Assembly: GCA_016930235.1 (NCBI GenBank)
Contig: JAFGHI010000021.1
Location: 56,810 to 120,809 of the forward strand
Origin: Candidatus Omnitrophota bacterium
GTDB lineage: Bacteria; Omnitrophota; Omnitrophia; Omnitrophales; Aquincolibacteriaceae
Length of the DNA: 64,000 nucleotides
Direction of reading: 5' to 3'
Both the position numbers and the translations under genes were made by a program. This document shows, piece by piece, positions 1,418 to 53,667 of the stretch. Under the pieces are notes generated by a model, which saw only the letters and a program-made list of their open reading frames with translations, made no database searches and was not told the DNA's origin. Position 1 is the first letter of the stretch; every line of letters begins with the position of its first letter.

Positions 1418-1669
1418 TTAGCTGCTCTGCCTTTTTTTAGGGACCGGATCGTATCCGCTCGTTCCCCACGGATGGCATCTTAAAATCCTTCTGAGGGCCA
1501 ACCAGTTTCCACCCAGAATACCGTGTTCTTGAATCGCCTCGATCATGTATTGAGAACACGTGGGCATATGGCGGCAAGAACCGGGGAAAAAAGGAGAAAT
1601 CAGCCTCTGATAAATTTTGATCATCAAGATGATCGGAAAAGCGATTAAGGCATGGATAAAAGATTTCAT
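1418..1669 (-). CDS. yidD: membrane protein insertion efficiency factor YidD
   Basis: An 83-aa protein carrying the YidD signature [14 protein letters not shown] and an N-terminal hydrophobic helix. Confidence 0.8.
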
Positions 1670-1701
1670 TTCAAGATAAACTCCGAAAGAAATCCGCTTG
1701 A

Positions 1702-2103
1702 TTAGTGGTTTTTCTTATCCTTCTCTTCTTCTTCCTGGGCTTTAATACTTAAGCGGGCGTAAGGCATGACCTTCAGTCTTCCCTTAGGTATGGGAGTTCC
1801 GTATTTCTCGCAGATTCCGTAGGTCCCCTCTTCGATTTTCTTTAGAGCCGAATCGATATCATTAAGAAGGTTTTGTCCATTGGAAGCCATGTTGATTTGG
1901 AACTCGGTGTCGAAACTGTCCGTCGCCACATCGGCCATATGAAAGCTATACCCCGACAGATCTCCGGTAGACTCTTTCTGGCTCTTATTCAGCACATCCC
2001 CCTCGATATTTTCGATGCCTTTGATAATCTTCTCGCGCAAAATGAGGAGACGCTTCTTGAAATCTTCCAACTCTTCCTGAGTAAAATTGGGCTTGCGCGG
2101 CAT
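1702..2103 (-). CDS. DksA/TraR-family regulator with degenerate zinc finger (DksA2-like)
   Basis: A coiled-coil N-terminus ([16 protein letters not shown]) is followed by a DksA-like C-terminus, [15 protein letters not shown]...ARLSIKAQ. Only 1 of the 4 canonical CxxC..CxxC cysteines is retained. Confidence 0.55.
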
Positions 2104-2127
2104 GAGATAAGGCGAGTCTGTCCTTCC

Positions 2128-2280
2128 CTATTTCTTTTCCCGAAAGACGACATAGCGCTTAAGAATGGGATCGAACTTCTTTCTTTCAAGCCTTTCCGGA
2201 TTCTTCTTCTTATTCTTGCGCGTCGTATAGCTGTAGGAACTTTCGGTGCTCTTCAGCGTAATAATTTCGCTTGGTACCAT
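2128..2280 (-). CDS. rpmG: 50S ribosomal protein L33, C-minus (zinc-ribbon-less) form
   Basis: A 50-aa ORF missed by the ORF track because it is under 60 aa. It translates to MVPSEIITLKSTESSYSYTTRKNKKKNPERLERKKFDPILKRYVVFREKK, which matches L33 with all four Zn-ribbon Cys replaced. Confidence 0.75.
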   Translation of the reverse strand: MVPSEIITLKSTESSYSYTTRKNKKKNPERLERKKFDPILKRYVVFREKK

Positions 2281-2491
2281 CGTTTATCCTTCCCTTTTCG
2301 ATAAAATTAAAAACGGTGCAGAAGTATACTCTAATTTCATCCGTTTTTCATCCTTTTTCCTACTCAATACCTTTTTGCCCGCAATTTCCCATTGTCCTGC
2401 AATAAATTGAGCCATAATGCTAAAAATTGAACGGCCATGCATCATCTGCCAAGCCATCACCGCTCGATTATTCTTATGGGATCAACCCAAG

Positions 2492-2525
2492 AAAAAAGCG
2501 AGGCTAGCTATGCTCGCAGCCTCGC
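2492..2525 (-). terminator. intrinsic terminator downstream of the SOD gene
   Basis: The 8-bp GC stem gcgaggct/agcctcgc (2498-2505 and 2518-2525) is followed on the minus strand by TTTTTT. Confidence 0.6.
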
Positions 2526-2550
2526 TTTCTTGCTTGGAGCACTCAAAAAA

Positions 2551-3749: not shown

Positions 3750-4499
3750 TTACTTCTTGGCCTTGCCCTGGCTGGCAACGGCCTCCATCGCCTTTTTTAC
3801 CTTCTCCGGATCCCCCAAGTAATAATGGCGAATGGGCTTTAAATTCTCGTCAAGCTCATAAACAAGGGGCATCCCCGTGGGGATGTTCAATCCCACAATT
3901 TCATCATCGGTCATATGATCAAGATACTTAACCAGTGCGCGCAAACTGTTCCCGTGCGCAGCAATCAAAACTCTCTTACCCGATTGGATGGCCGGAGCAA
4001 TCACCTCATGCCAGCAAGGGAGAAATCTCGCAACGGTATCCTTCAAACACTCCGTTAACGGGACCTGCTCTTTTTTCAGATCTTTGTATCGCGGATCTTT
4101 GGCCGGATTGCGTTCATCATTGGGTTCCAATGCTGGCGGCCGGATATCGTAACTCCTGCGCCAGATCTTGACCTGATCCTCACCGAATTTTTCCGCCATT
4201 TCAGACTTACTTAACCCCTGGAGGGCTCCATAATGACGTTCGTTGAGACGCCAATCCCGAATGACAGGGATCCACATCAAATCCATCTCCTCCAGGACAA
4301 TCCAAAGAGTCCGGATGGCACGTTTCAGAACGGAAGTATAAGCAAAATCAAAAACATATCCATCCCTCTTAAGCTGCTTACCGCCATTTTGGGCCTCCGC
4401 GATCCCTTTTTCTGACAGATCAACATCTGTCCACCCCGTAAACCGGTTCTCTTTGTTCCAGACACTTTCCCCGTGGCGCACCAATACAAGTTTATACAT
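3750..4499 (-). CDS. gpmA: 2,3-bisphosphoglycerate-dependent phosphoglycerate mutase
   Basis: [30 protein letters not shown], the RHYG motif and the C-terminal K-rich tail fit GpmA. The start is set at MYKLV, which has a GGGAGG Shine-Dalgarno upstream. Confidence 0.9.
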
Positions 4500-4601
4500 T
4501 TCCGCTTTCCCTCCCATTCAAAAATGAGTCCGTCACCTTATCTTTTCCCGAAGGGCCCGAGTTTACACCAGATCTTACCAGACTTCAACTTTCCTTCACC
4601 C

Positions 4602-6341
4602 TCACAATACAGAAGCTTCAATAACCTTTTTCTCGGGTGTAATTGCAACGTCCTGATAGTCTTGATTCTTGGGGTGATTGGCACTTCGGGTCATCAACCA
4701 AATATCGAATATCAAGGCTAAAAATCCAAAGAAGTAGCGAGTTTGCACCCAAATCCGCTTGGCATAAAACGGAATAAAAGATTCCTTGGGCATACCCGGC
4801 CGTCTTTCTCTGCGGTTTTTGATCCGCCAGAATCCTCCGAGTAAAGGATGGACATCCGTAAGAAAGACAGAGGAACAAAACCAAATAAGGGATGCGAAAA
4901 GAAGACGGCGTCTGGGCCCTTTTCTCCTTAATAACAATGTCTTCAAATGCTCCCGGCTGTAAAAAGAATCCCAGGCATCCCGGTAAGCCCGCATCCAATC
5001 TGCATTGGACATACTCGGATGCTGATTGCAGGCATGGGCAGAATCATAAAGGTTGGTATCTTCCGCCATCGGAACTTTCTTTAAATAAAGATCTTGATGA
5101 TCTTTTGAACCCGGTAAAGGCGTCATCACAAAAAACTCCGCCAGATCAAGCGGCAGTTCATGTTTGAGGAAATCAACATCCCGCCTAATCGATTCATAGG
5201 TATCTCCCGGAAAACCGATAATATACCCCGCGCATGTCAGCGCTCCATGGTCCCGCCACTTTTGGAGCATCTCCCTGTAATCCTTCAGCTGATTTTGATG
5301 TTTTCCCGCCGCTTTCAGATTATCCGGATTGACCGATTCCATCCCGATAAAAACCCGCCGGACACCCGCACGCGTCATTTTCTCAATAAAATTGGGAATT
5401 TTATGCGCCACCACATCCGTCTGAATCATCAACGAACAACGAATCCCCTTCTGTTCTTTTAGATAAATGAGCCGGTCCGCAATTGCTTCCCAATCCTTAT
5501 GCCGGGCAAAATTATCGTCTGTAATAAAAATATGTTTGGATCCATTTTTAAAGTTTGTGCGCACGAGTTTCTCAATATCATCGGCATTCCGTCCGCGCAT
5601 CGTATTGCCTTGGATATGGATGATCGTACAAAAGGAACACTTAAAGGGGCAGCCCCGGCCTGCATCAAAACTTGTTTGCCTCTCAAAAAAACGAGACATG
5701 ACCGATTGAGGCAAAATAGGTCCTGGGACATTTTCGAGATTGGGTCTATCTCCGATCAAATCATAAGCGGGTTCTAATCGATTTCGGAAAGCAGCCTCTA
5801 AAAGCTCGCCCCATTTCTCTTCAACCTCGCCTGCTACAAGAGTGATCCCTTGATCCATCGCTTCTTGAAGCCCGCAACCCTTATCGGGCAGCATCGCCAT
5901 CACCCCCGAAACATGAAAACCTCCGATCATGCTCGGAATCCCTTCCGCCTTAAACTCTATAGCCAGATCGACGGCCCGCGCATACTGGTTGGTCTGAACA
6001 CCCACCATACAAGCTATGGCTTTTTCGTTTCTCTTGCGGACACTTTGACATAGCTTACGAACAGGAATCTTCTGTACGGTTTCATCGAAGGTATGGATAA
6101 CGGGTTCAACATTTTCACCCAAAAATCCTTTTTTAAAGACATCCTGAGTCAAGGAATAGAGGCAGGCCAGAGAATTACTGGTGATAATCCCCCATCCCCA
6201 ACGAATGACATACCCCTCGTCATCGTACCGGGAGGGTTTAATCAAGATAATATGAAAACGCTCTTTTGTTTTTGATGGCACAGGAATCTTTCTTGGAAAC
6301 CAGAGAGACTTGAACGGGGAACCCAACAGTTTCTCAGTCAA
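4602..6341 (-). CDS. B12-binding domain radical SAM protein (class B radical SAM; hopanoid/other C-methylase-like)
   Basis: An N-terminal cobalamin-binding-like region is followed by a radical SAM CxxxCxxC motif (CPFKCSFC). The 579-aa size and a hydrophobic C-terminal segment fit this class. Confidence 0.7.
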   Translation of the reverse strand: MTEKLLGSPFKSLWFPRKIPVPSKTKERFHIILIKPSRYDDEGYVIRWGWGIITSNSLACLYSLTQDVFKKGFLGENVEPVIHTFDETVQKIPVRKLCQSVRKRNEKAIACMVGVQTNQYARAVDLAIEFKAEGIPSMIGGFHVSGVMAMLPDKGCGLQEAMDQGITLVAGEVEEKWGELLEAAFRNRLEPAYDLIGDRPNLENVPGPILPQSVMSRFFERQTSFDAGRGCPFKCSFCTIIHIQGNTMRGRNADDIEKLVRTNFKNGSKHIFITDDNFARHKDWEAIADRLIYLKEQKGIRCSLMIQTDVVAHKIPNFIEKMTRAGVRRVFIGMESVNPDNLKAAGKHQNQLKDYREMLQKWRDHGALTCAGYIIGFPGDTYESIRRDVDFLKHELPLDLAEFFVMTPLPGSKDHQDLYLKKVPMAEDTNLYDSAHACNQHPSMSNADWMRAYRDAWDSFYSREHLKTLLLRRKGPRRRLLFASLIWFCSSVFLTDVHPLLGGFWRIKNRRERRPGMPKESFIPFYAKRIWVQTRYFFGFLALIFDIWLMTRSANHPKNQDYQDVAITPEKKVIEASVL

Positions 6342-10516: not shown

Positions 10517-10547
10517 CATGTTCTTAACATTTTCTTCAAGGAGCGTC

Positions 10548-11756
10548 ATGAAAGCCTTACTCTTAACCAATGAATATCCTCCCCATATCTATGGGGGTGC
10601 CGGCATCCATATCGAATACTTAAGCCGGGAGTTGGCCAAACTATGTCAAGTGGATATCCGTTGCTTTGGGGATCAGAAAATCAATGAAAAATCCCTAACG
10701 GTCACGGGGTATGGGCCTATGCGGGACAAGGCCTCGGCTCCCCAGAAATTGACGATCGCCTTTGATGCCGTTCAGCGTTGTCTTGACTTTAATAAGACCT
10801 TGGTCGATGCCGATATCGTCCATTGTCACACCTGGTACACCCATTTCGGAGGAATCCTGGCTAAACTCAATTACTCTATTCCCTTTGTCCTAACATCACA
10901 CTCCCTTGAACCTTTGCGCCCCTGGAAACGCGAACAACTCGGAGGCGGTTATGATTTCAGCTGCTGGGTTGAGAAAACAGCCATCGAAATGGCGGACGCC
11001 GTCATTGCCGTCTCAAAGGATGCCAAGAAGGATATTCTCCGCTTTTTCACAATCCCCGAAGAAAAGGTCCATGTTATTTATAACGGTATTGATCCGGATG
11101 AATATCGCCCGGTCAAAGCACCCGAAAAGTTAACGCCATACGGGATCGATCTAAAGCAACCTTACGTCCTTTTTTTGGGGAGAATCACGAAACAGAAAGG
11201 AATTACTTATCTTATTGAAGCTATTTCACATATGAACCCAGATTTCCAAGTCGTCTTATGCGCCGGCGCTCCTGACACAAAAGAATTAGCCGATCAAGTG
11301 CATTCGCGAATCACTCAACTTCAAAAAGAGCGCAAGGGAGTTATCTGGATTCAAGAAATGCTTCCCACCAACGTAAAAGCAGCCCTCTTTTCCCATGCTG
11401 CCCTTTTCTGCTGCCCCTCTATTTATGAACCGTTCGGCATCATTAACCTGGAAGCTATGGCTTGTGAAACCCCTGTCGTCGCAAGCGCGGTCGGCGGAAT
11501 CCCCGAAGTGGTCGAGGATGGAAAAACCGGTGTATTAGTCTCCCTCAAGCAGAAGAAAACAAGCCCTTTTGAACCGCTCGATCCTAAGAAATTCTCAAAG
11601 GACTTGGCCCAAGCCATCAATCGCTTAATGGACAATGGACCGCTGCGTTTAAAAATGGGGAAAGCAGGACGTAAACGCGCCATTCAAATTTTCAGCTGGA
11701 AGGCCATCGCCAAAAAGACCTTTGATTTCTATCAGTCCCTTGTCAAAAAAAGTTAA
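10548..11756 (+). CDS. GT4 glycosyltransferase, GlgM / Corynebacterium-type glycogen synthase-like
   Basis: LLTNEYPPHIYGGAGIHIEYL and CQVDIRCFG resemble mycobacterial GlgM (Rv1212c), and the C-terminus has the GT-B EX7E-like region. The start is set at MKALLL, which has an AAGGAG Shine-Dalgarno. Confidence 0.65.
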   Translation: MKALLLTNEYPPHIYGGAGIHIEYLSRELAKLCQVDIRCFGDQKINEKSLTVTGYGPMRDKASAPQKLTIAFDAVQRCLDFNKTLVDADIVHCHTWYTHFGGILAKLNYSIPFVLTSHSLEPLRPWKREQLGGGYDFSCWVEKTAIEMADAVIAVSKDAKKDILRFFTIPEEKVHVIYNGIDPDEYRPVKAPEKLTPYGIDLKQPYVLFLGRITKQKGITYLIEAISHMNPDFQVVLCAGAPDTKELADQVHSRITQLQKERKGVIWIQEMLPTNVKAALFSHAALFCCPSIYEPFGIINLEAMACETPVVASAVGGIPEVVEDGKTGVLVSLKQKKTSPFEPLDPKKFSKDLAQAINRLMDNGPLRLKMGKAGRKRAIQIFSWKAIAKKTFDFYQSLVKKS

Positions 11757-29003: not shown

Positions 29004-30472
29004 ACGATCACTCCTCCGGCTACACGGCCTGCTTCCAAAAGCAGCTTCTGGAAGGGGCCCGGGATGTAAAAACCCATCACGAAGATCACGATCAAGCCGA
29101 TGTCGAGAACACTGTCCATCAAGAAACTTTTTTCTGATGCCGGAGACTCCTCCGAAGCGCCAAAAGTCATCCCATTGGCGTGCCTCAAAAAACCGATAAA
29201 GATAAGCGCTAGTAAAACGAGCAAGAAGACGCAAGGAATAAATTTCCCGGCCAGGAATCCTGCGCTTAAAATAAGGAATTCGCTGACAAAAATGCTGAAC
29301 GGCGGCATCCCGGCAATGGCCAAGACACCTAAGAAGAAAATGATGCCCAAAAACGGGTTTTCCAGGAAGATCCCTTTTATCTTACCGATCTCTTTGGTCT
29401 TAAAAAGATAAAGCAGATGCCCGCAACTAAAAAAAAGCATGGATTTTGTGAATGCGTGGTTCACGATGTGAAGGATCGCTGCGTAGGCCCCGAACGCGCC
29501 GCCAAAACCCAGTCCCACGGCCGCAAGTCCCATATGCTCGACACTGGAATAAGCCAGAAGACGTTTATAATCTTTTTGCTCCAGGATAAACGGCGTTGCA
29601 ACAGCAACAGAAAGAACTCCAAATAAAATGAGGAGCGTCCCTGAGAATGCGGATCCAGTCGCAGCTGTGGTCAGAATGTGGAACCTCAGTATTCCCAAAG
29701 TTGCACAGCTTAAAAGCACGCCGGAAAGAAGTGCACTCACGGGGGCTGGAGCCTGGCTGTGCGCATCCGGAAGCCAGGAATGGAACGGCGCGAGACCCGC
29801 TTTGGTTCCGTAACCCACCAGAATAAAAATAAAAGCAAGACGGATAATCTGTGGATCTAACTGTCCGGCCCTGCTCAAAAGGAAGGTCCAATTCAGTAAA
29901 AAAACGTTCTCTCCCGCGCTCACTTGAGCGATCGCCGAATAATAGACCAGGATGATCCCGAAAAGCGCGAGCGCAATCCCGACGCTGCAAAGAATCAGGT
30001 ATTTCCATGCGGCCTCGATCGAACTTTTCTTGTCATCTACGTTGACCAGGAACGCTGAAGCTAGCGTCGTTCCCTCGATCGCGATCCACATAATGCCAAG
30101 ATTATTGGAAAAAACGGTCAAAAGCATGGTGAAAAGGAAAAGATGGAAAAAGAAAGCATACCGTCGAAGCCTTAAAGAAGAGATGCTTGAATCTCCTTCT
30201 TTGAAAAGATATCCCCCCGCATAGACGGCCGAAAGCATTCCTACGCTCGTGATCAGAAGCACAAAGACCGCGGACAGCGAATCCATCATGAGATTCCCGC
30301 TAAAAGCGAACACACGGGGCGACCAGTAAACCCCAAAAACAAAGAGCCATGCTCCGATCGCGGAAAGCACGGCGCCGGTCGTGAACGTCAGTCGCGTCAT
30401 CCTCTTAGGGCAAGGGATCAAACAAAGAAACGCAAAAATAAGGGGCATCCAAAGGACCCTGTCGATCGTCAT
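29000..30472 (-). CDS. antiporter-like membrane subunit (NuoN/HyfF/MnhD family)
   Basis: A 490-aa protein with about 14 TM helices and the conserved blocks AWKYLIL and GLAPFHSWLPDAH. Confidence 0.75.
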   Translation of the reverse strand: MTIDRVLWMPLIFAFLCLIPCPKRMTRLTFTTGAVLSAIGAWLFVFGVYWSPRVFAFSGNLMMDSLSAVFVLLITSVGMLSAVYAGGYLFKEGDSSISSLRLRRYAFFFHLFLFTMLLTVFSNNLGIMWIAIEGTTLASAFLVNVDDKKSSIEAAWKYLILCSVGIALALFGIILVYYSAIAQVSAGENVFLLNWTFLLSRAGQLDPQIIRLAFIFILVGYGTKAGLAPFHSWLPDAHSQAPAPVSALLSGVLLSCATLGILRFHILTTAATGSAFSGTLLILFGVLSVAVATPFILEQKDYKRLLAYSSVEHMGLAAVGLGFGGAFGAYAAILHIVNHAFTKSMLFFSCGHLLYLFKTKEIGKIKGIFLENPFLGIIFFLGVLAIAGMPPFSIFVSEFLILSAGFLAGKFIPCVFLLVLLALIFIGFLRHANGMTFGASEESPASEKSFLMDSVLDIGLIVIFVMGFYIPGPFQKLLLEAGRVAGGVIV

Positions 30473-30476
30473 CGTA

Positions 30477-31136
30477 TTATCCTTTCAAAACGGTCATATC
30501 GTCCGCGTCGATACTTTCAAAAGCATCGCGGATCTTAAAAACAAAAATTCCCATAATCATCGCAGCGACCAACACGTCGAAAAAGATTCCCATCTCGACC
30601 AAAAGCGGCATGCCGAAGGTCATAGTGACAGCCATTAAAAAAAGACCGTTCTCAATTAGAAGCAGGCCGAGAACCTGACTGATCGCTTTTTTCCGGGTCG
30701 TCATCATTAACATGCCGAAAAAGACGGTCGAGACAGCAAGCGGAATGAACTCACTAAAGGCAACCGGTTTCAGGATCTTGCCATCTCCCGTGACATAAAA
30801 CGAAATAAACACAAGCAGAACAGCCAAAAGAAGTGAAAAGGGAATGTTGAAACAACTTTCGACCTCTTTGCGAATCCCGAGCCGCCGGATGATCCTAAAA
30901 AAAACTTGCGGGATCACGATCGTTTTCAGAATAAGCGTCAAAATCGCAGGGACCAACAGATGCTCGACATGGTTCGTGACCGCAATCACCGCAGTAATAA
31001 GCGCGAGTAGGAAAGAGTGCGTTGCGTAGGCACGGATACACGTCCCTATCCGGGAAGACGCGAGGATCCAGAAAGAAGCAATCAGAAGAACCATCCCAAA
31101 AAAATGAATCAGCGAAGCCGCGAGTTCCGGACTCAT
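30477..31136 (-). CDS. HyfE-like small membrane subunit (hydrogenase-4 component E family)
   Basis: A 219-aa protein with 6-7 TM helices. Its position and size match hyfE. Confidence 0.55.
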   Translation of the reverse strand: MSPELAASLIHFFGMVLLIASFWILASSRIGTCIRAYATHSFLLALITAVIAVTNHVEHLLVPAILTLILKTIVIPQVFFRIIRRLGIRKEVESCFNIPFSLLLAVLLVFISFYVTGDGKILKPVAFSEFIPLAVSTVFFGMLMMTTRKKAISQVLGLLLIENGLFLMAVTMTFGMPLLVEMGIFFDVLVAAMIMGIFVFKIRDAFESIDADDMTVLKG

Positions 31137-32083
31137 ACTCCCCTCCCGATCATCAGTTGCCCCAGAAGAGAAAGGATGGCCAGAACAAAAGCCACCGCCA
31201 GAAGGTCCGGGACCCTAAAAAGACGCAATTTCGCAGAATGGATCTCAATCCACCCGATAACAAACGCCAGAAAAAAGACTTTCGCGAGGTAAAGAACCAG
31301 CGACAATCCAAAAGCCAGCGGGTCCCACGAACCCGCAATCCCCCAGGGGAAAAAAAGATCCGACAAGAGTGTCAAAAATACCAGCTGTTTAATCTGATGG
31401 CTCCATTCAATCAGGGCCAGATACCGTCCGGAATATTCAAGGATCATGGCCTCGTGAACCATTGTCAGCTCCAGGTGTGTTGCCGGATTATCCACAGGGA
31501 TCCTTCCACTTTCCGCGATTGTTACGATCAGCAGTGCTCCGAAAGCAAGGCTCGTAAAAAAAAGCATCTGTGTGGGCGATCCGGAAGCGAAATATGAAAC
31601 AATCCCTTCCAGGGACAACGTGTGGGCGCAAAAACCCAAAGAGAAAAAAGCGAGCAGAAGCGCCGGCTCCGCAAGTGACGAAAGCGTCATCTCCCGACTT
31701 GAACCCATACCACCGAACGTAGTGCCAGTGTCCAATGCCGCAAGCGCTAAAAAGAAACGGCCCAAAGCCAGGAGGTAAACAAAGAGGATCACATCCCCCG
31801 TAAAACCAAAAAGAGAACGTATACCTAAAACCGGCAGCATCGAAGCCGCCGCAAAAGTTGACACAAAAAGGACGAAAGGCATGGCATGAAAGATCCAGGA
31901 CGCCGTTTCCGAGATTACCATGTTCTTCCGGAATAATTTCAGTAGATCCGAATAGACCTGGATCAAGCTCGGCCCCACGCGGTTCTGCGAAGCCGCTTTC
32001 ATTTTTTTGATGAACCAGCTAAGCGCAGGCGCCAAAATCGCCAGGAACAAAAGTTGGATAACGGACAAAAGGATCGCCAGCAT
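31133..32083 (-). CDS. NuoH/HyfC/HycD-like membrane subunit
   Basis: A 316-aa protein with 8 TM helices and the NuoH-like blocks RVGPSLIQVYSDLLKL and EYSGRYLALIEW. Confidence 0.7.
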   Translation of the reverse strand: MLAILLSVIQLLFLAILAPALSWFIKKMKAASQNRVGPSLIQVYSDLLKLFRKNMVISETASWIFHAMPFVLFVSTFAAASMLPVLGIRSLFGFTGDVILFVYLLALGRFFLALAALDTGTTFGGMGSSREMTLSSLAEPALLLAFFSLGFCAHTLSLEGIVSYFASGSPTQMLFFTSLAFGALLIVTIAESGRIPVDNPATHLELTMVHEAMILEYSGRYLALIEWSHQIKQLVFLTLLSDLFFPWGIAGSWDPLAFGLSLVLYLAKVFFLAFVIGWIEIHSAKLRLFRVPDLLAVAFVLAILSLLGQLMIGRGV

Positions 32084-34110
32084 CAGGAACGCCCTCCGAA
32101 GAAAAAAAGCAGAAGGATCAGCGTAATAAAAATATAGCTTAAATAAAGCTGGATGTGCCCTGTCTGAATCTGCTTGGCCTTCCGGGATAGAACAGCAACA
32201 AACTCTGACAAAGGTTTATAAACCCATTCATCCACGTGATGCGTAATCTTTGACTCAAAACGCTGTGCAGTCCTGAGCATTGCATGACCTTCATCTTCCA
32301 ACTCCACACGGCGGGTCGGTTGATAGAGAAATGAAAAGATCCGGCGTAAAGGCTTGGAATAACCTGTGGCTGTATACTGCATACGCGGTTCAAGTCCCGG
32401 CATCCCGCAATCCCAGCTGGGACAGATGCGGACAATCTTTTTTCCAAGCAACACCCGCAAAAAGATTACGGCCCCGACCAAAAATGCCGAAAGGATCAAA
32501 GCGATAAGAACCGGGGAAAACTGGCTTGACTCTGAGGGGGATATCAAAAAGGATTTCCGAACCATGGCTCCCATCGGAATATCCGTGCCGGATAAAGTTT
32601 TTGCCACTTTCCCAAGAATAGGCACAATCCATGGAGCCGCCAGGGCCAACCCAAAACAACTCGCGGCCAGGATCCCCATTCCAGCTTTCATGGATCCGCT
32701 CACTTCATGCGCGTGGGCGGCCTGCTCAGAACGGGGCTTCCCTAAAAAGCTGATGCCAAAAGCCTTCACAAAACAGGTGGCCGCCAAAGCACCCGCAAGC
32801 CCAAGAAGCGCGGCTAAAAGCGGTGAAAAAAAACGCAGGGCCGGGCTCGCACCTTCGCATCCCAGCAGAAGCACGATAAAAGTCAGCCATTCGCTCACAA
32901 ATCCATTGAGAGGGGGTAACGCCGAAATCGCAGCCGAACCGATGAAAAAACAAGCGGCCGTCCAGGGCATGTTCCGTATCAAGCCGCCCAAACGCTCGAT
33001 ATCTTTTATGTGGGTGCCAGAAAGAATGGAACCCGCGCCAAGAAAGAGCAGCCCTTTGAAAGTTGCGTGATTTATTACATGATAAAGGGCGGCAATCAGG
33101 GCGAAGGAAGCGTAGAAGGGCTTCTTCGCGGAAGAAAAAACAAGCGCCATTCCAACGCCCAGCAGAATGATCCCGATGTTTTCGATGCTGTGAAAAGCAA
33201 GAAGCCGTTTGAGATCATGTTCCATCAAGGCATAGAGAACACCGAGCAGCGTTGAAAAAATCGCAACCGCAAGCACCGCGGATCCCCACCACGCGGGTAT
33301 CGCGCCAAGAAAGTTAAAAAGGAACAGAAGCAACCCGTAGATCGCCGTTTTGATCATGACTCCTGACATGAGCGCCGAGACATGGCTTGATGCCTGCGGA
33401 TGAGCCTGGGGCAACCAGATGTGAAGCGGGATCACGCCGGCTTTGGTCCCAAATCCGATGAACGCCGCGAGAAAAATAACGTTTTTAAGAACAGGCGGCA
33501 GCGTAACCGCAGCTCCTCTGAATGCATCGAATGAAAAAGAGCCCGCATGGATGTAAAGAAGCAGGAATGCGGCGGTAATAAAAGCGGTCCCCACATGCGT
33601 CATGATCAGGTAAAGCCTCCCGGCAGACAGGGCTTCGGGTCTTTCATGTTCAAAGATCACGAGAAAATAGGACGTAAGAGACATGATCTCCCAAAAAAGG
33701 AGAAAATAGAAAGCATTTTGCACTGTGACCACGAACAGCATCGCAAGAATGAAAAAATTATAGAAGAACCCCAGAAGCGCTATGCTCTTCCTCCCCTGAA
33801 ATTCCCGGGTATAACCGATGGCGAACAGAGAAGCAGCCAATGAAAGAAAAGAAATAATAAGAAGAAAGAAGGCTGAAAAGGGTCCCGCCACGAAGCGTAA
33901 AGCGCCTACCGGGAAACTCCCCTGCAATTCCAGGACCCAGGATCCTCCCGTGAAAAGGATGCCAAGCGAAAAGAGGATGCCCAACGCGCTCGCCAGAACA
34001 GCCAAGCCATGCGTCACGCGGTTCGCTTTTTCTCCGTGTTGTTCAAAAAGAAAACCCGCGATCCCTCCCAATATATGCAGCAACACCTGAACAAAAAATA
34101 ATAATTCCAT
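32083..34110 (-). CDS. NuoL/HyfB/MnhA-like antiporter-like membrane subunit
   Basis: A 675-aa protein with about 16 TM helices and the blocks GVIPLHIWLPQAHP and HATFKGLLF. It is the first gene of the operon. Confidence 0.75.
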   Translation of the reverse strand: MELLFFVQVLLHILGGIAGFLFEQHGEKANRVTHGLAVLASALGILFSLGILFTGGSWVLELQGSFPVGALRFVAGPFSAFFLLIISFLSLAASLFAIGYTREFQGRKSIALLGFFYNFFILAMLFVVTVQNAFYFLLFWEIMSLTSYFLVIFEHERPEALSAGRLYLIMTHVGTAFITAAFLLLYIHAGSFSFDAFRGAAVTLPPVLKNVIFLAAFIGFGTKAGVIPLHIWLPQAHPQASSHVSALMSGVMIKTAIYGLLLFLFNFLGAIPAWWGSAVLAVAIFSTLLGVLYALMEHDLKRLLAFHSIENIGIILLGVGMALVFSSAKKPFYASFALIAALYHVINHATFKGLLFLGAGSILSGTHIKDIERLGGLIRNMPWTAACFFIGSAAISALPPLNGFVSEWLTFIVLLLGCEGASPALRFFSPLLAALLGLAGALAATCFVKAFGISFLGKPRSEQAAHAHEVSGSMKAGMGILAASCFGLALAAPWIVPILGKVAKTLSGTDIPMGAMVRKSFLISPSESSQFSPVLIALILSAFLVGAVIFLRVLLGKKIVRICPSWDCGMPGLEPRMQYTATGYSKPLRRIFSFLYQPTRRVELEDEGHAMLRTAQRFESKITHHVDEWVYKPLSEFVAVLSRKAKQIQTGHIQLYLSYIFITLILLLFFFGGRS

Positions 34111-34255: not shown

Positions 34256-34369
34256 ACCCCTGGGCTCTCCCTTCCGCTACGCTCCAGGGACGGCTTCGGG
34301 TTTCGCCCTTCGCACGGAACCTTGTATCGGCCTCCGGCCGATGGTTCTCGCATCGCAAAGAAACATCAC

Positions 34370-34409
34370 AAAAAAAGGCCACAAGCATTTGACTGCCGTG
34401 GCCTTTTTT
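34370..34409. terminator. bidirectional intrinsic terminator downstream of tRNA-Asn
   Basis: The structure is AAAAAAA-GGCCAC-(15 nt)-GTGGCC-TTTTTT. Confidence 0.6.
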
Positions 34410-34416
34410 GTGATGA

Positions 34417-34489
34417 CTCCCCCGCCTGGGCTCGAACCAGGGACAAAGCGGTTAACAGCCGCTTGCTCTACCAACTGAGCTACAGGGGA
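34417..34489 (-). tRNA. tRNA-Asn (anticodon GUU)
   Basis: The minus strand reads TCCCCTGTAGCTCAGTTGGTAGAGCAAGCGGCTGTTAACCGCTTTGTCCCTGGTTCGAGCCCAGGCGGGGGAG. It folds as a cloverleaf with a 7-bp acceptor stem, a CTGTTAA anticodon loop and a TTCGAGC T-loop. The 3' CCA is not encoded. Confidence 0.85.
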
Positions 34490-34801
34490 ATGAATCTTCA
34501 AATAACAGTGCGGCTTATCTTCGATCCCCCGCATTATATGCACGTACTGTCGTGCGGTCAATCCATGTTGTCACTCGTAGATGGATGGGGTTCTAACTCA
34601 TTCCCGTTCAAGACATTGAGATAGATTAGTCGACCTTGACCCAACATACTGGGCATACATATATGTCATTTTATAGAATCTTATACCAAATACATAATTG
34701 TAGACTCTTTCTTTATTATGCAATTCGACGGTTGATTCGATAGCTTATAACATATTATATATAAAAGAGATATGTCTTTTCTGAAAATGAATTGATAATG
34801 T

Positions 34802-34817
34802 TGGCATGCCCCATGCA
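34802..34817 (+). promoter_or_regulatory. sigma-54 (-24/-12) promoter for amtB-glnK
   Basis: TGGCATGccccaTGCA has the GG and GC elements at the canonical 10-nt spacing. It lies about 50 nt upstream of the amtB ATG in an AT-rich leader. Confidence 0.6.
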
Positions 34818-34866: not shown

Positions 34867-36177
34867 ATGAATTATTGGGTAAAAATAGTATTCAGCTTAT
34901 TGATTCTAATTCCATTATTATGCTCTCCGTCGTCATTCGCCGCTGCGGTGAGTCCTGAGATGTTTGCGGTCAACAATACTTGGATGCTTGTCGCAACGTT
35001 TCTTGTATTTATCATGCATTTAGGATTTGCGACTCTTGAGACAGGATTGACGCGTTCAAAAAACACTGTCAACATCCTTTTCAAAAACACCCTGATCGTA
35101 GCCATTGGAATCCTCACCTATGCGCTTATGGGATTCAATCTCATGTATCCGGGTGAATTTTCCTTGGGTCAATTTTTCGGGTTTGCAGGCTTCGGTATCG
35201 GAACCGATGCCGCCGGCCTTACCAGTGCTTATAACGAGGGGTATACGTATTGGACGGATTTTATGTTTCAGGCCATGTTCGCTGCTACCGCAGCAACCAT
35301 TGTCTCGGGGGCAGTCGCTGAGCGGGTGAAACTCCACAGTTTCCTTATCTTTTCAACGATCTATGTTGCCATTATCTATCCCTTGGTTGGTTCTTGGAAA
35401 TGGGGGGGCGGATGGCTGGATGAGATGGGCTTTTATGATTTTGCAGGTTCCACACTCGTTCATTCCGTCGGGGGATGGGGGGCGTTAGCTGGCGTTCTGC
35501 TACTCGGCCCTCGATTCGGAAAATACGTCAATGAGAACATCAACCCCATTATGGGCCATAGCATGCCGCTTGCAACGATCGGAGTCTTTCTTCTATGGTT
35601 GGGTTGGTTTGGCTTCAACGGAGGTTCGGTTTTATCGGCCAACCCCGGAATGGTATCTTTTGTTTTTGCCACAACCACCCTCGCCGCCGCCGCAGGCATT
35701 GTAGGAGCGATGTTTACAAGCTGGTCGATTCAAAAAAAACCTGATTTATCCATGGTCTTAAACGGTTGCCTGGCGGGGCTTGTCGGTATTACTGCGGGAG
35801 CCGATACGGTTTCAATCGCATCCTCCGTTATCATTGGATTCTTTGCCGGTATCCTGGTCGTTCTTTCGGTGATCTTGATCGACCGTATCCGGATCGATGA
35901 CCCGGTGGGTGCTATTTCCGTCCATTTAGTCTGCGGAATTTGGGGCACTCTTGCCGTCGGAATCTTTAGCACCAACCCGGAACACAGCTTCGGAGTACAA
36001 CTAATCGGTGTTTTGGCAGCCGGGGCAATGTGTTTTACCAGTGCATTTCTCATTTTTGGCCTGTTAAAACTAACTTTAGGTATCCGTGTCAGCCAGGACG
36101 AAGAACTCCGCGGTTTGGATGTGGGAGAACATGGTATGGAAGCCTATAACGGTTTTCAAATTTTCACAACACAATAG
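34867..36177 (+). CDS. amtB: ammonium transporter
   Basis: A signal peptide is followed by 11 TM helices with the Amt blocks DFAGSTLVHSVGGW and LGWFGFNGGS. An AAAGGAG Shine-Dalgarno is present. Confidence 0.9.
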   Translation: MNYWVKIVFSLLILIPLLCSPSSFAAAVSPEMFAVNNTWMLVATFLVFIMHLGFATLETGLTRSKNTVNILFKNTLIVAIGILTYALMGFNLMYPGEFSLGQFFGFAGFGIGTDAAGLTSAYNEGYTYWTDFMFQAMFAATAATIVSGAVAERVKLHSFLIFSTIYVAIIYPLVGSWKWGGGWLDEMGFYDFAGSTLVHSVGGWGALAGVLLLGPRFGKYVNENINPIMGHSMPLATIGVFLLWLGWFGFNGGSVLSANPGMVSFVFATTTLAAAAGIVGAMFTSWSIQKKPDLSMVLNGCLAGLVGITAGADTVSIASSVIIGFFAGILVVLSVILIDRIRIDDPVGAISVHLVCGIWGTLAVGIFSTNPEHSFGVQLIGVLAAGAMCFTSAFLIFGLLKLTLGIRVSQDEELRGLDVGEHGMEAYNGFQIFTTQ

Positions 36178-36204
36178 TCTTAGATTAAAATGGAGGATGA
36201 AATC

Positions 36205-36546
36205 ATGAAACTTGTCATTGCCTATATTCAGCCGGAACGGTTAACCCCCGTTAAACAATCGCTCTATGATGCTGAAATCTATAAAATGTCGGTCACCAAT
36301 GCCCTTGGGTGCGGACAACAAAAGGGTTATCACGAAAGTTACCGAGGCACCGACATCGAAGTCAATCTCTTGAAGAAAGTACGCCTTGAGATTGCAGTAA
36401 ACGATGATTATGTCCAACAAACGATTGATGCAATCATCAAAGGCGCGAGAACAGGTAAGATCGGGGACGGAAAGATCTTTGTCCTGGATCTGCCGGAATG
36501 CATCCGGATCCGGACCGGCGAAAAAAGCCAAGACGCCATCGGCTAA
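36205..36546 (+). CDS. glnK: nitrogen regulatory protein P-II
   Basis: [13 protein letters not shown], the T-loop YRGTDIEV (Tyr51) and the KIGDGKIFV block are present. A GGAGG Shine-Dalgarno sits 8 nt upstream. The start is set at MKL, not at the ORF-track Met. Confidence 0.85.
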
Positions 36547-36584
36547 AGTTTCGCCATCTTCGCCCAGCTCCGGCGCCCACAATG

Positions 36585-36678
36585 CCACCGCTTCGCCCAC
36601 CGCGTAGGTGGCCTTTTCAACCATTCCTAACGTTAGGTTTGTACGAAAAGGCCACCTACGCGGTGGGCGAAGCGGTGG
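36585..36678. repeat. perfect 33-bp inverted repeat with a 28-nt spacer containing a 12-bp palindrome
   Basis: The arms at 36585-36617 and 36646-36678 are exact reverse complements (ccaccgcttcgcccaccgcgtaggtggcctttt). The spacer holds cctaacgttagg at 36626-36637. The structure sits between convergent glnK and a histidine kinase gene. Confidence 0.8.
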
Positions 36679-36684
36679 ATAGGA

Positions 36685-37917
36685 TTAAGAAATAATTTTG
36701 GGGAATGTTAGGATAAATTTTGTGCCCTTGCCAATTTCACTTTCAACGGCAATCTTCCCGTGATGAGCCTTCACAGTCTTATCAATCACCATGAGACCAA
36801 GCCCCGTCCCCTTTTCTCCTTTCGTTGAGAAAAAGGCCTGAAAAAGCTTCGCCCGAACCTCTTCACTCATCCCCTGTCCATTATCCTCAACCGTGATTTG
36901 ATAGGTATCCGGATCCACAGAAAAGACGCGGATACGGACAAAGGATTTCTCTTGGCGGCAAGCCTCAAGGGCATTTTTGACGATATTTAACAATGACCGA
37001 TAGATCGACTGATATTCCATATCAACCTGCGGAAAGTTCTCCTCTACCTGAAAATCAAGTTCTGCATTAAACTGACGGGCCTTCTCCTCCAAGTCACCTT
37101 GGAGTTCTTTCAGGAGATCCTTCGGATCCACTTTTTGGGCTTCAATCTTGTAGTCTTTCGTCAAACTCAGCATCTCATAAACAAAACCATTCATATTCTT
37201 GATCGCTTTTTCCATCCCCTTCATCCCGCGCTTGAGAAATTCCTGATTACCCTTTTCAATCCCCCGCTTGAGCCAATCTGATGAAAAGGTTGCCAGCTGA
37301 ATAATATTTTTGACTTCATGAAGAACCATGCTGACCGTCTGCCCGATCGCCGCAAGCCTTTCCATCTTGATATTCTGCTCATAAAGGAGAATGTTTTTGA
37401 GCGCTCCCGCCATTTGAGCCGCCAGGTTGGCAGCCGCTTCCAAATCCGGCCCCGAAAAACCTTCCGATGCAGAATCACGCACAAAACAGGCAATCCCAAT
37501 CTCGGTATTCCGGACAATCAACGGAACAAAGAGAGCTTTCCCGGTACAAACTGGCTGACCTTTTTGAAAATGCGCCTTCGCCTCCTCAACCAGATTCCCG
37601 GGTAATTGACCGGCTGGATCCGAACTGGATTCTAACCATAATTGATCCTCAGCTCCCGACAAGAAAAGATACCCGCCGCAGGCATGGACAAAGGCCTGAA
37701 CACTTTCGACAAAGAAATCACAGAGAAGCTTCTTGTCGAGGAAGGAATTGTAGATTTTCCCCACTTCATGGATTGATTGATGATCCCGATCCAATGAGCA
37801 CATGGTCGGCATCTTAACGAATGTCGATACGAATTGCAAGCCTCGAACAACATGAAAATATTGTCGTTTCGAGCCATTTCCATTATAATTCATGATCACA
37901 TAAACGAATATTCCCAT
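36685..37917 (-). CDS. GAF-domain sensor histidine kinase
   Basis: It has an H-box (LHEVKNIIQ), N/G boxes (VEDNGQGM and GTGLGLMVIDK) and an N-terminal GAF-like region. The start is uncertain: the ORF track runs to 38022 and would overlap the divergent kinase gene, so I chose the internal Met at 37917. Confidence 0.6.
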   Translation of the reverse strand: MGIFVYVIMNYNGNGSKRQYFHVVRGLQFVSTFVKMPTMCSLDRDHQSIHEVGKIYNSFLDKKLLCDFFVESVQAFVHACGGYLFLSGAEDQLWLESSSDPAGQLPGNLVEEAKAHFQKGQPVCTGKALFVPLIVRNTEIGIACFVRDSASEGFSGPDLEAAANLAAQMAGALKNILLYEQNIKMERLAAIGQTVSMVLHEVKNIIQLATFSSDWLKRGIEKGNQEFLKRGMKGMEKAIKNMNGFVYEMLSLTKDYKIEAQKVDPKDLLKELQGDLEEKARQFNAELDFQVEENFPQVDMEYQSIYRSLLNIVKNALEACRQEKSFVRIRVFSVDPDTYQITVEDNGQGMSEEVRAKLFQAFFSTKGEKGTGLGLMVIDKTVKAHHGKIAVESEIGKGTKFILTFPKIIS

Positions 37918-53052: not shown

Positions 53053-53667
53053 CTATTTACCTGTCTCGTTTAAATCCTTTTCAAGGAACTCCCTAAGGTC
53101 TCCTAATATCCTCGCAACATCGCCCCCGGGGTTCTGAGCGAGAATCTGCCCGATTTTCTCTTTGGCGGCCTGAATTTTCTCTGTATCGTGCTTGATTCTC
53201 CGGATAATCTTATTCACTTCAACCGCTGTTTCATGAAAAAAATCACCTTCCCGGAGACGCACGGGAACCGGAATCTCCTTGCTTGCACCACGGTTCATCC
53301 GGATGAAGATCTGCCTAAAACGGTAAACCGGTCCGGCAACGCGATGCAGGAAGAAAATCCCAAATGTTCCAAGGACCATCAAAGAGGCAAATAAAATCAG
53401 GGAAATCCTCAAAATCAGCTGATATTGCACTTCCCCTAATACCTCGATGGGGTTGATCTTGCCAAACCGGAAACCTCCTCCAAAAGCGGCCTCCCGTATT
53501 GTTTCATGAACGACAAAACCAATCGCAAGCCCCGATACAATTAGGAGCCCAAGCACAACCATGGTAAATTCACGTTGCATCGGCCTGTGAATAAGAACGT
53601 TACGGACACGCCTTTTATAAGGTCGGGTCCCCTCCTGCGCTTGATTTTCGATATTTTCCTGATTCAT
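53053..53667 (-). CDS. hypothetical two-TM membrane protein with a HAMP-like linker
   Basis: The architecture is TM1, a short loop, TM2, then an amphipathic segment (HRVAGPVYRFRQIFIRMNRGA) and a coiled coil. There is no output domain. Confidence 0.3.
   Translation of the reverse strand: MNQENIENQAQEGTRPYKRRVRNVLIHRPMQREFTMVVLGLLIVSGLAIGFVVHETIREAAFGGGFRFGKINPIEVLGEVQYQLILRISLILFASLMVLGTFGIFFLHRVAGPVYRFRQIFIRMNRGASKEIPVPVRLREGDFFHETAVEVNKIIRRIKHDTEKIQAAKEKIGQILAQNPGGDVARILGDLREFLEKDLNETGK

What the first reader, a model, noticed from the sequence alone, without database searches (positions are those of the whole stretch)
36585..36678. Exceptionally long perfect palindrome (33-bp arms) with a nested 12-bp palindrome between glnK and the histidine kinase gene
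The arms at 36585-36617 and 36646-36678 are exact reverse complements over 33 nt. The 28-nt spacer contains the perfect palindrome CCTAACGTTAGG. Intrinsic terminators rarely exceed about 12-bp stems and usually tolerate mismatches. A flawless 33-bp stem instead suggests a REP/MITE-like element, a recognition site for a dimeric DNA-binding protein or a recombinase, or an RNA element processed by a double-strand-specific RNase. It abuts the kinase stop codon within 6 nt and lies 38 nt after the glnK stop.
Basis: seen in the sequence. Interest (0 to 1): 0.55.

Follow-up and report, generated by a model that had tools for sequence, protein, structure and literature searches.

The report
Giant single-copy hairpin between convergent genes
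A real, GC-rich 94-base palindrome with a flawless 34-bp stem fills the gap between the ends of two facing genes (glnK and a sensor kinase) in an uncultured Omnitrophota genome; it is most likely an oversized shared transcript-end hairpin, no other copy was found anywhere I could search, and the rest of this genome could not be searched.

Summary
The arms at 36585-36618 and 36645-36678 are exact reverse complements over 34 nt. The 26-nt spacer has the perfect 12-mer CCTAACGTTAGG exactly on the symmetry axis. It is by far the most stable local fold in the 64-kb window (-83.8 kcal/mol against a mean of -20.7, sd 6.1).

A second assembly, from run SRR13394437, breaks exactly 30 nt (k-1) into each arm. 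That is what a true inverted repeat of at least 31 nt produces, so an assembly artefact is unlikely.

The element is the only candidate terminator structure between convergent glnK and the kinase gene. It is not a canonical intrinsic terminator, because no T-tract follows the stem on either strand. This genome does use canonical terminators elsewhere.

No second copy turned up in the window, 505 kb of related loci, GTDB species genomes, JGI metagenomes, IMG/VR, plasmids or phages. No transposase or RAYT gene lies in the window, and no Rfam family matches. Kinase orthologues in relatives lack both the element and the glnK junction.

Best reading: an RNA 3'-end barrier and stabiliser, REP-like in action and REPIN-like in anatomy, created at the DNA level by inverted duplication or insertion of a palindromic element. 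Membership of REP, REPIN or MITE families is not shown. Interest is modest.

The parts
36585..36618 (.). Arm 1 of the palindrome, 34 nt, 68% GC: CCACCGCTTCGCCCACCGCGTAGGTGGCCTTTTC
   Evidence: Exact reverse complement of 36645-36678. GC content.
36645..36678 (.). Arm 2 of the palindrome, 34 nt: GAAAAGGCCACCTACGCGGTGGGCGAAGCGGTGG
   Evidence: Logan contig L023 begins at 36649, which is 30 nt inside this arm.
36619..36644 (.). Spacer of 26 nt. Two asymmetric 7-nt blocks (36619-36625 AACCATT and 36638-36644 TTTGTAC) form the internal loops. They flank the on-axis perfect 12-mer CCTAACGTTAGG (36626-36637), which caps the hairpin as a 4-bp stem with an ACGT loop.
   Evidence: Folds. The 12-mer is unique in the window. 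Mismatch clustering P = 4e-4.
36597..36611 (.). Small palindrome inside arm 1, CCACC-GCGTA-GGTGG (-7.5 kcal/mol alone), followed by CCTTTTC. A polymerase coming from glnK meets this mini-terminator-like motif first.
   Evidence: The mirror copy was flagged as terminator-like.
36652..36666 (.). Mirror copy of the small palindrome inside arm 2. On the - strand it reads CCACCGCGTAGGTGG followed by CCTTTTCGTA, so a polymerase coming from the kinase gene meets it first.
36547..36584 (.). GC-rich (63%) left flank between the glnK stop and arm 1. It holds CTTCGCCCA (36558-36566), a direct repeat of arm positions 7-15, and may be a decayed partial third copy of the unit (weak evidence).
   Evidence: The whole gap 36547-36684 is the most GC-rich intergenic region in the window (59% against 36-50%).
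36190..36546 (+). P-II / GlnK-like gene. The likely start is the ATG at 36205, which has a GGAGGA ribosome-binding site. It ends 38 nt before arm 1.
   Evidence: Pfam PF00543, E = 4e-24. Logan contig L102 carries it and ends 30 nt into arm 1.
34867..36177 (+). amtB ammonium transporter gene, upstream of glnK and probably in the same operon.
   Evidence: Pfam PF00909, E = 3e-116.
36685..37803 (-). Sensor histidine kinase gene, convergent with glnK. NCBI protein MBN1688072.1 is the 372-aa form. Its TAA stop at 36685-36687 lies 6 nt from arm 2.
   Evidence: Pfam HATPase_c.

Best explanation
This is a genuine element, single-copy in all data I could search: a 94-nt GC-rich quasi-palindrome that is the only structured sequence in the 138-nt gap between convergent glnK and a sensor kinase gene in a Candidatus Omnitrophota MAG.

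Mechanism (inferred, not shown). Transcripts arriving from either side fold into the same very stable hairpin: a 34-bp perfect stem, small internal loops, and a 4-bp cap with a tetraloop, about -82 to -84 kcal/mol. The hairpin acts as a shared 3'-end structure. It hinders read-through into the opposing gene. That action would be non-canonical, because no U-tract follows the stem. It may be helped by the weak CCACC-N5-GGUGG + CCUUUUC motif that each polymerase meets first, by Rho, or by polymerase collision. The hairpin also blocks 3'-to-5' exonucleases, and so sets and stabilises the 3' ends of both mRNAs, as E. coli REP elements do.

Origin (inferred). The stem is pure Watson-Crick with no G-U pair, so it is equally perfect on both strands. 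That points to a DNA-level event, either an inverted duplication or template switch, or the insertion of a REPIN-like palindromic element. Gradual RNA-level selection would not be expected to give this.
For: Real and extreme:
- Exact 34-nt arms.
- The strongest 100-nt fold in the window, more than 10 sd from the mean, with z about -11 on both strands.

Not an assembly artefact:
- Logan contigs L102 and L023, from run SRR13394437, are 100% identical to the window and stop exactly 30 nt (k-1) into arm 1 and arm 2.

Position fits a transcript-end role:
- It lies 38 nt and 6 nt after the two stop codons, and without it the gap would hold only 44 nt with no strong hairpin.
- In the closest amtB-glnK relatives, the gap between glnK and the convergent gene also carries strong hairpins. 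L105 has a 13-bp A/T-flanked bidirectional terminator, and L103 and L107 have two hairpins each.

Literature:
- Perfect inverted repeats in bacteria are more than 12-fold enriched just downstream of transcript ends (PMC13155455).
- E. coli REPs act as combined terminator and stabiliser, and those between convergent genes go with higher expression of both genes (bioRxiv 10.64898/2026.03.23.713779).

DNA-level origin:
- 0 G-U pairs and 0 mismatches in 34 bp.
- All 5 mismatches sit in one 7-nt block (P = 4e-4).
- GC is 59-68% in a 46% GC genome, the highest of any intergenic region in the window.
Against: - No T/U-tract follows the stem on either strand. The tails are ATAGGATTAA on the + strand and CATTGTGGGC on the - strand.
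- The same genome has canonical terminators with stems of about 11-14 bp or more followed by T5-T7, at sodA, the gene at 3750-4517, the gene at 10518-11756, tRNA-Asn and the gene at 53053-53667. Classical intrinsic termination is therefore not predicted here.
- The small hairpins inside the arms are weak (-7.5 kcal/mol, followed by T4).
- There is no conservation to lean on. The nearest kinase orthologues are at most about 60% identical. They lack both the element and a downstream glnK.
- There are no RNA 3'-end data.
- A perfect DNA palindrome is equally what a selfish element or a neutral recent duplication would look like.
Confidence: 0.45

Rival explanations
1. It is a non-autonomous palindromic mobile element (REPIN- or MITE-like). 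The two arms are inverted REP-like units mobilised in trans by a transposase encoded elsewhere in the genome. The site between convergent 3' ends is simply where such insertions are tolerated.
For: - The anatomy matches the published REPIN description: two inverted units, each with its own short palindrome plus flanks, separated by a spacer that itself forms a hairpin (PMC3337134).
- It is extragenic.
- Its GC content is foreign to the surrounding DNA.
- The arms are identical, as in a young insertion.
- A GTAG tetranucleotide lies next to the inner stem (read directly from the sequence).
- There may be a decayed partial third copy in the left flank.
- The glnK-kinase junction is not conserved in relatives.
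Against: - Only one copy in 64 kb, with no singlet of the 17-nt core even at 3 mismatches, and none by blastn-short.
- No copy in 505 kb of related Omnitrophota loci.
- In GTDB species genomes the 20-mer gave 22 hits, all single matches in high-GC genomes with no extension beyond the 20-mer.
- None in JGI metagenomes, IMG/VR, plasmids or phages.
- No called protein in 5.8 billion clusters shares words with the open frame that crosses the element.
- No transposase or Y1_Tnp domain in any ORF of 150 aa or more in the window.
- No target-site duplication: the flanks are CAATG and ATAGG.
Confidence: 0.2
2. It is a recent, essentially neutral by-product of replication: an inverted duplication or template switch, or a quasi-palindrome 'corrected' to perfection. 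It has had no time to decay and has no dedicated function.
For: - Perfect Watson-Crick symmetry over 34 bp.
- A singleton in every search.
- No conservation in any relative.
- It sits where a palindrome does least harm.
Against: - A simple fold-back gives symmetry right through the centre. Here a perfect centre and perfect arms are separated by a discrete asymmetric 7-nt block, which random decay does not explain (P = 4e-4).
- The GC-rich sequence has no source elsewhere in the window.
- Without it neither gene would have any 3' hairpin.
Confidence: 0.2
3. It is a DNA-level binding site. Each arm holds a dyad, CCACC-N5-GGTGG, with the two centres 55 bp apart. These could bind a dimeric regulator, for example an NtrC-type activator acting on the sigma-54-like promoter of amtB-glnK from downstream, or a recombinase or structure-specific protein that recognises a cruciform.
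For: - The dyad occurs in the window only in the two arms.
- From my own knowledge, it resembles the core of NtrC sites (GCACC-N5-GGTGC). This was not tested.
- A -24/-12 type motif, TGGCATGCCCCATGCA, lies 50 nt upstream of the amtB start.
- The DNA hairpin is very stable.
Against: - A binding site needs about 17 bp, not 34 bp of perfect symmetry.
- The location is 1.8 kb downstream of the promoter, at gene 3' ends.
- Two matches to the dyad pattern are not rare by chance (22 of 100 shuffles), and the sigma-54 pattern count is at chance level across the window.
- No sigma-54 activator gene was found in the window (Pfam).
- Positive supercoiling between convergent genes disfavours cruciform extrusion (twin-domain model, established knowledge).
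Confidence: 0.05
4. It is an assembly or library artefact: a hairpin chimera, or a mis-join of two loci that share a repeat.
For: - The window comes from a short-read MAG.
- Both Logan contigs break at the arms, so that assembly shows no single contig crossing the element.
Against: - The breaks fall exactly k-1 = 30 nt into each arm, as expected when a real inverted repeat of at least 31 nt is present in the reads.
- The arms match no common sequencing adapter that I know (my own knowledge).
- The spacer is asymmetric yet has an on-axis palindrome, which a chimeric join would not give.
- A 94-nt element is spanned by ordinary 100-150-nt reads.
Confidence: 0.05

Closest known systems
Bidirectional intrinsic (Rho-independent) terminators between convergent genes
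   Same: - A GC-rich hairpin placed within a few tens of nt of both stop codons.
- Symmetric, so both transcripts fold alike.
- The only structured element in the gap.
- This genome and its relatives use hairpins at such sites, for example the tRNA-Asn terminator at 34364-34415 and the 13-bp stem in L105.
   Different: - Canonical examples have an A-tract, a stem that here runs to about 11-14 bp or more, and a T-tract. This element has a 34-bp stem and a structured 26-nt apex.
- The T4/A4 runs lie inside the stem, next to the spacer, instead of outside it, so no U-tract follows the hairpin on either strand.
REP elements and REPINs (REP doublets forming hairpins; Bertels and Rainey, PMC3116915 and PMC3337134)
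   Same: - Extragenic.
- Two inverted units, each with its own small palindrome and flanks, and a spacer that also folds. The whole forms a hairpin of about 100 nt.
- The expected action on RNA, partial termination plus protection of the 3' end, is what has been reported for E. coli REPs.
   Different: - REPs and REPINs are defined by tens to hundreds of copies per genome and a cognate RAYT gene. One copy was found here and no RAYT in 64 kb.
- REPIN arms are usually imperfectly paired. These arms are perfect.
MITEs with long terminal inverted repeats (such as Correia elements, RUP and Nezha; named from my own knowledge)
   Same: A short, non-coding, intergenic element, palindromic end to end, whose composition differs from its surroundings.
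   Different: No target-site duplication, no other copies, no parent IS with matching ends in the window, and at 94 nt it is at the small end of the range.

Membership tests
Intrinsic (Rho-independent) terminator | A GC-rich stem-loop shortly downstream of a stop codon. | tested here: met
   The stem starts 38 nt after the glnK stop and 6 nt after the kinase stop. The arms are 68% GC.
Intrinsic (Rho-independent) terminator | A U/T-rich tract immediately 3' of the stem. | tested here: not met
   The tails are ATAGGATTAA (+) and CATTGTGGGC (-). The scan flagged only the 5-bp mini hairpin inside arm 2. Canonical terminators in the same window carry T5-T7.
Intrinsic (Rho-independent) terminator | A stem of typical size (in this window about 11-14 bp, up to about 25 pairs when flanking A/T tracts are counted) with a short loop. 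| tested here: not met
   The stem is 34 bp with a 26-nt structured apex, at -83.8 kcal/mol against -17 to -33 for the canonical terminators in this window.
REP / REPIN | Many copies per genome (tens to hundreds). | tested here: inconclusive
   One copy in the 64-kb window, with no singlets. No copy in the public collections searched. The rest of this MAG could not be read.
REP / REPIN | A cognate RAYT (Y1 HUH transposase) gene in the genome. | tested here: inconclusive
   No such domain in any ORF of 150 aa or more in the window.
REP / REPIN | Two REP units in inverted orientation, each with its own palindrome, separated by a spacer that forms a hairpin; extragenic. | tested here: met
   34-nt inverted units that each hold CCACC-GCGTA-GGTGG, and a spacer capped by CCTAACGTTAGG. 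Definition taken from PMC3337134.
MITE | A target-site duplication flanking the terminal inverted repeats. | tested here: not met
   The flanks read ...CACAATG | element | ATAGGAT..., with no direct repeat of 2-10 nt.
MITE | Multiple copies, or a parent IS with the same ends. | tested here: inconclusive
   None in the window or in any collection searched.
Any curated RNA family (Rfam 15) | A score at or above the family's gathering threshold. | tested here: not met
   Only hits to plant miRNA-precursor models (MIR841, MIR834) at 34-39 bits against a threshold of 200. These are generic long-hairpin matches.
Integron attC site | R'' (RYYYAAC) and R' (GTTRRRY) core sites at the outer ends of an imperfect palindrome with extrahelical bases. 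| tested here: not met
   GTTAGGT and CCTAAC lie at the centre, not at the ends. The outer ends are CCACCGC and GCGGTGG, and the stem has no bulges. The consensus is from my own knowledge.

The most novel reading that the evidence does not exclude
The element is the visible member of a lineage-restricted family of REPIN-like palindromic mobile elements in Omnitrophota. On this reading the other copies and the mobilising transposase lie in the part of the MAG that I could not read. The 34-nt arm, with its internal CCACC-N5-GGTGG hairpin and adjacent GTAG, would be the unit that the transposase recognises.
Probability: 0.12. Interest if true: 0.5.

Novelty: new member of a known kind. Interest (0 to 1): 0.27.

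Why it matters
If the hairpin does set both transcript ends, it shows that a candidate-phylum bacterium can use a very long duplex with no U-tract as a shared 3'-end barrier, in place of the canonical terminators it uses elsewhere. That would be a useful test case for hairpin-only or Rho-assisted termination and for 3'-end protection.

If it proves to be multi-copy, it would extend REPIN-like elements to Omnitrophota.

As it stands it is one locus in one MAG, with no comparative or expression data, so its wider significance is limited.

Tried and rejected
**Searches for other copies**
- Window with the 33-mer and the 17-mer core at 3 mismatches: only the two arms.
- blastn-short of the 138-nt gap and of the arm against the window and 78 related loci: only chance 9-13-mers.
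- GTDB species genomes with a 20-mer: 22 hits, all single, all in high-GC genomes, none extending beyond the 20-mer.
- JGI metagenomes with a 24-mer: 0 hits.
- IMG/VR with a 21-mer and with a gapped two-arm pattern: 0 hits.
- Plasmids and phages by blastn: nothing meaningful.
- Protein-space trick: the frame that stays open across the element, searched against 5.8 billion protein clusters, in case copies elsewhere had been called as ORFs. No candidate.

**Origin of the arm**
- Gene-fragment origin (the arm reads EKATYAVGEAV outward on both strands): tblastn against the window and the loci found nothing.
- Short arm k-mers that are mildly over-represented in the window (GGCCTTTT, ACCGCTTCG) are a terminator-type motif and sequences that fall inside annotated coding regions of the window. 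They are not dispersed copies of the element.

**Known RNA families and comparative tests**
- Rfam: only sub-threshold miRNA-precursor hits.
- Orthologous kinase loci: upstream synteny (rsbW-STAS-MlaE-ABC-MlaD) is kept, but glnK and the palindrome are absent downstream.
- Closest amtB-glnK loci (L103, L105, L107): they have their own hairpins, but these do not align with this element.

**Retrieving more of the genome**
- Exact-protein look-ups of the kinase (445-aa and 372-aa forms), amtB and the 113-aa GlnK were not on record.

**Ideas rejected from the sequence or context**
- Sequencing adapter: the arms match none that I know (own knowledge).
- DNA uptake sequence pair: no dispersed copies.
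- Replication terminus or dif site: GC skew does not switch anywhere in the window.
- attC site: core sites in the wrong place.
- Protelomerase site: no phage or plasmid context.
- Retron: no reverse transcriptase nearby.
- Stop-codon read-through signal: the stop is TAA, and the extended frame is antisense to glnK.

Full report
**1. Is it there?**

Yes. The sequence and the repeat finder show arms at 36585-36618 and 36645-36678 that are exact reverse complements over 34 nt.

The 26-nt spacer has the perfect 12-mer CCTAACGTTAGG at 36626-36637, exactly on the symmetry axis. The whole 94 nt is therefore a quasi-palindrome, with 42 of 47 positions paired. The five mismatches all lie in one 7-nt block next to the stem (AACCATT against TTTGTAC). 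If five mismatches fell at random among 47 positions, that clustering would have probability 4e-4.

The arm occurs nowhere else in the window, even with 3 mismatches, and in no shuffle. The 12-mer is unique. No other inverted repeat in the window comes near it.

In a sliding 100-nt fold of both strands, the element scores -83.8 kcal/mol against a window mean of -20.7 (sd 6.1). The runner-up is the tRNA-Asn terminator at -53.7. In context, the RNA folds are -96.7 and -98.4 kcal/mol with z about -11 on the two strands. The DNA fold is -51.7 kcal/mol with z -13.9.

**2. Is it an artefact?**

Unlikely. Two contigs from an independent de Bruijn assembly (Logan, run SRR13394437) are 100% identical to the window. 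L102 carries amtB' and glnK and ends 30 nt into arm 1. L023 carries the kinase side and begins 30 nt into arm 2. Thirty is k-1 for k = 31, which is exactly where a graph must branch if the reads contain a true inverted repeat of at least 31 nt.

The run may be the same one the MAG was built from; I could not check. So this is a second assembler, not necessarily a second sample.

The arms match no sequencing adapter that I know. The asymmetric spacer with an on-axis palindrome is not what a chimeric join would produce.

**3. Where is it?**

- The window comes from a Candidatus Omnitrophica/Omnitrophota MAG. The kinase is NCBI protein MBN1688072.1, on a 130,555-bp contig.
- Pfam confirms amtB (34867-36177, +), a P-II/GlnK gene (36190/36205-36546, +) and a GHKL sensor kinase (36685-37803, -).
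- The neighbourhood is core chromosome. To the left lie a group-4 NiFe-hydrogenase/Mrp-like cluster, a P-type ATPase and tRNA-Asn. To the right lie rsbW-STAS, MlaEFD, ftsK, pnp, truB, infB and nusA.
- No ORF of 150 aa or more in the window has a transposase, integrase or Y1 (RAYT) domain.
- The 138-nt gap 36547-36684 is the most GC-rich intergenic region in the window: 59%, with arms at 68%, against 36-50% for all the others and 46% overall.
- GC skew does not switch in the window.

**4. Is it an ordinary terminator?**

No. This genome has textbook intrinsic terminators: an A-tract, a GC-rich stem (about 11-14 bp, more when the flanking A/T tracts pair) and T5-T7. They occur after sodA (2551), the genes at 3750-4517 and 10518-11756, tRNA-Asn (34364-34415) and the gene at 53053-53667.

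The palindrome has a 34-bp stem and is followed by ATAGGATTAA on the + strand and CATTGTGGGC on the - strand. Neither strand has a U-tract. Its T4/A4 runs face inward, next to the spacer.

Each arm does hold a small palindrome, CCACC-GCGTA-GGTGG (-7.5 kcal/mol), followed by CCTTTTC. A polymerase from either side meets this motif first. By the standard of the other terminators in the window it is weak.

Without the palindrome the gap would be 44 nt with no strong hairpin, so it is the only candidate 3' structure for both genes.

**5. Are there other copies, or relatives?**

None was found.
- Window and 505 kb of related loci: only chance short matches.
- GTDB species genomes: a 20-mer gave 22 single hits in unrelated high-GC genomes, and none extended beyond the 20-mer.
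- JGI metagenomes: 0 hits.
- IMG/VR: 0 hits, twice.
- Plasmids and phages: nothing meaningful.
- Rfam: only sub-threshold plant miRNA-precursor models, which are generic long-hairpin matches.
- A peptide read across the element shares no words with any of 5.8 billion protein clusters, so no copy elsewhere has been called as an ORF.

It is evidently not among the GTDB representatives searched, since the 20-mer scan did not recover this locus. Copy number in the genome therefore remains the main open point.

**6. Comparative context**

The nearest kinase orthologues are only about 59-60% identical. Seventy-eight metagenome loci with relatives were fetched. In the closest ones the upstream rsbW-STAS-MlaE-ABC-MlaD synteny is kept. 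None has glnK or amtB downstream, and none has a comparable hairpin after the kinase stop.

AmtB is 82% identical to proteins found in other contexts, some labelled Calditrichota or Acidobacteriota. In three such loci, amtB-glnK is again followed by a convergent gene, with hairpins in the gap. L105 has a 13-bp A/T-flanked bidirectional terminator. L103 and L107 have a terminator plus a conserved hairpin of about 80 nt. These do not align with the element here.

So a hairpin at this kind of junction is usual, but this particular sequence is not inherited from any relative in reach.

Perfect stems of 14 bp or more are rare in those 505 kb: 13 cases, the longest 28 bp.

**7. What it most likely is and does**

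The stem has no G-U pair and no mismatch, so it is equally perfect on both strands. RNA-level selection tolerates G-U pairs and would not enforce that. The symmetry was therefore made, or is maintained, at the DNA level. Possible routes are inverted duplication or template switching, or insertion of a palindromic element. The foreign GC content and a possible decayed partial repeat (CTTCGCCCA at 36558-36566) lean slightly towards imported or duplicated DNA.

The discrete 7-nt asymmetric block between a perfect stem and a perfect centre is not random decay. It gives the RNA two small internal loops below a 4-bp cap with a tetraloop.

For function I commit to a shared RNA 3'-end structure, at about 0.45. 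On this reading the hairpin impedes read-through into the opposing gene in a non-canonical way, possibly assisted by Rho, by polymerase collision, or by the weak inner motifs. It also blocks 3' exonucleases such as PNPase, so it defines and stabilises both mRNA ends.

This is how REPs are now described in E. coli, including higher expression of both genes when a REP lies between convergent genes. It also agrees with the more than 12-fold enrichment of perfect inverted repeats just downstream of bacterial transcript ends.

What is shown: the structure, its position, its uniqueness and its reality. What is inferred: termination, stabilisation and possible RNase III cleavage.

**8. Rivals**

- A REPIN- or MITE-like mobile element (0.2). 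The anatomy fits the REPIN definition, but copy number and transposase are unproven and there is no target-site duplication.
- A neutral recent inverted duplication (0.2).
- A DNA-binding site built on the two CCACC-N5-GGTGG dyads, perhaps linked to the sigma-54-like promoter of amtB (0.05).
- An assembly artefact (0.05).

The first two are compatible with the element also acting on RNA.

**9. Verdict**

None of the more exotic readings gained support, and the REP/MITE idea fails the one defining test I could apply, copy number, as far as the data reach.

I file it as a new, singleton member of the known kind 'extragenic palindromic hairpin at convergent gene ends'. It is unusual for its stem length, its perfection and its inward-facing T-tracts. 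Interest is 0.27.

Counting copies in the full MAG and checking read support in SRR13394437 would settle most of what remains open.

Noticed in passing
window 34364-34415 (- strand, just downstream of tRNA-Asn at 34415-34490): A textbook bidirectional intrinsic terminator: CATCACAAAAAAGGCCAC...GTGGCCTTTTTTTGTGATG, about -32 kcal/mol. It shares the 10-mer AAAAGGCCAC / GTGGCCTTTT with the inner end of the palindrome's stem. There the A and T runs are on the outside; in the palindrome they are on the inside.
   Followed up: partly
window 34802-34817 (+): TGGCATGCCCCATGCA is a near-consensus sigma-54 type -24/-12 motif with one mismatch, 50 nt upstream of the amtB start codon. This fits nitrogen-regulated expression of amtB-glnK. 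The motif count across the whole window is at chance level, so only the position is suggestive.
   Followed up: partly
L103 about 5754-5845 and L107 about 4237-4325 (+): In the two closest amtB-glnK loci, a conserved hairpin of about 80 nt with a branched apex, followed by a T-tract, lies after the first glnK terminator and before a convergent response-regulator gene. The two copies are alike, with what look like a few pair-preserving changes on inspection of the sequences. No Rfam family matches. It could be a small RNA or a second terminator.
   Followed up: partly
window 34867-36177 (amtB) against 36685-37803 (kinase): AmtB is 82% identical to proteins from contigs labelled Calditrichota and 78% to Acidobacteriota ones, and only 73% to one labelled Omnitrophota. 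The neighbouring kinase has no relative above about 60%. The window's own AmtB was absent from the protein collection. The amtB-glnK pair may have been acquired horizontally, or AmtB may simply be much more conserved.
   Followed up: no
L031 633-671 and 6068-6108; L060 1321-1361: A repeated hairpin with a 17-18-bp perfect stem ending ...TTCTCATCGATT occurs twice in one related Omnitrophota metagenome contig and once in another. It looks like a dispersed REP-like repeat, and it is unrelated in sequence to the element studied here.
   Followed up: no
L062 6618-6674: A 57-bp perfect palindrome (28-bp arms and a 1-nt centre: CCCTCTCTTCCCTTTCCCCCGTCCGCCG c ...) lies in a high-GC contig that carries a distant kinase relative, in what appears to be a gap between the two long same-strand ORFs. 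It shows that very long perfect palindromes occur sporadically elsewhere.
   Followed up: partly
window 36241-36687 (- strand): The kinase reading frame stays open past its TAA stop, through the whole palindrome, and on for about 148 codons antisense to glnK. The + strand also has a frame that stays open across the entire element. This is probably a side effect of GC-rich palindromic and antisense-of-coding sequence, and no homologue was found.
   Followed up: partly
window 26505-34110 (- strand): A cluster for a group-4 membrane-bound NiFe-hydrogenase or Mrp-like complex: a fused 30-kDa/49-kDa NuoCD-like large subunit, a NuoB-like subunit with a ferredoxin domain, NuoH-like and two NuoL/M-like antiporter subunits. 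A P-type cation ATPase and a PsiE-family gene lie beside it.
   Followed up: no
window 1345-2550: A 1.2-kb stretch between two convergent genes holds no ORF of 150 aa or more. I did not examine it for small genes or RNAs.
   Followed up: no
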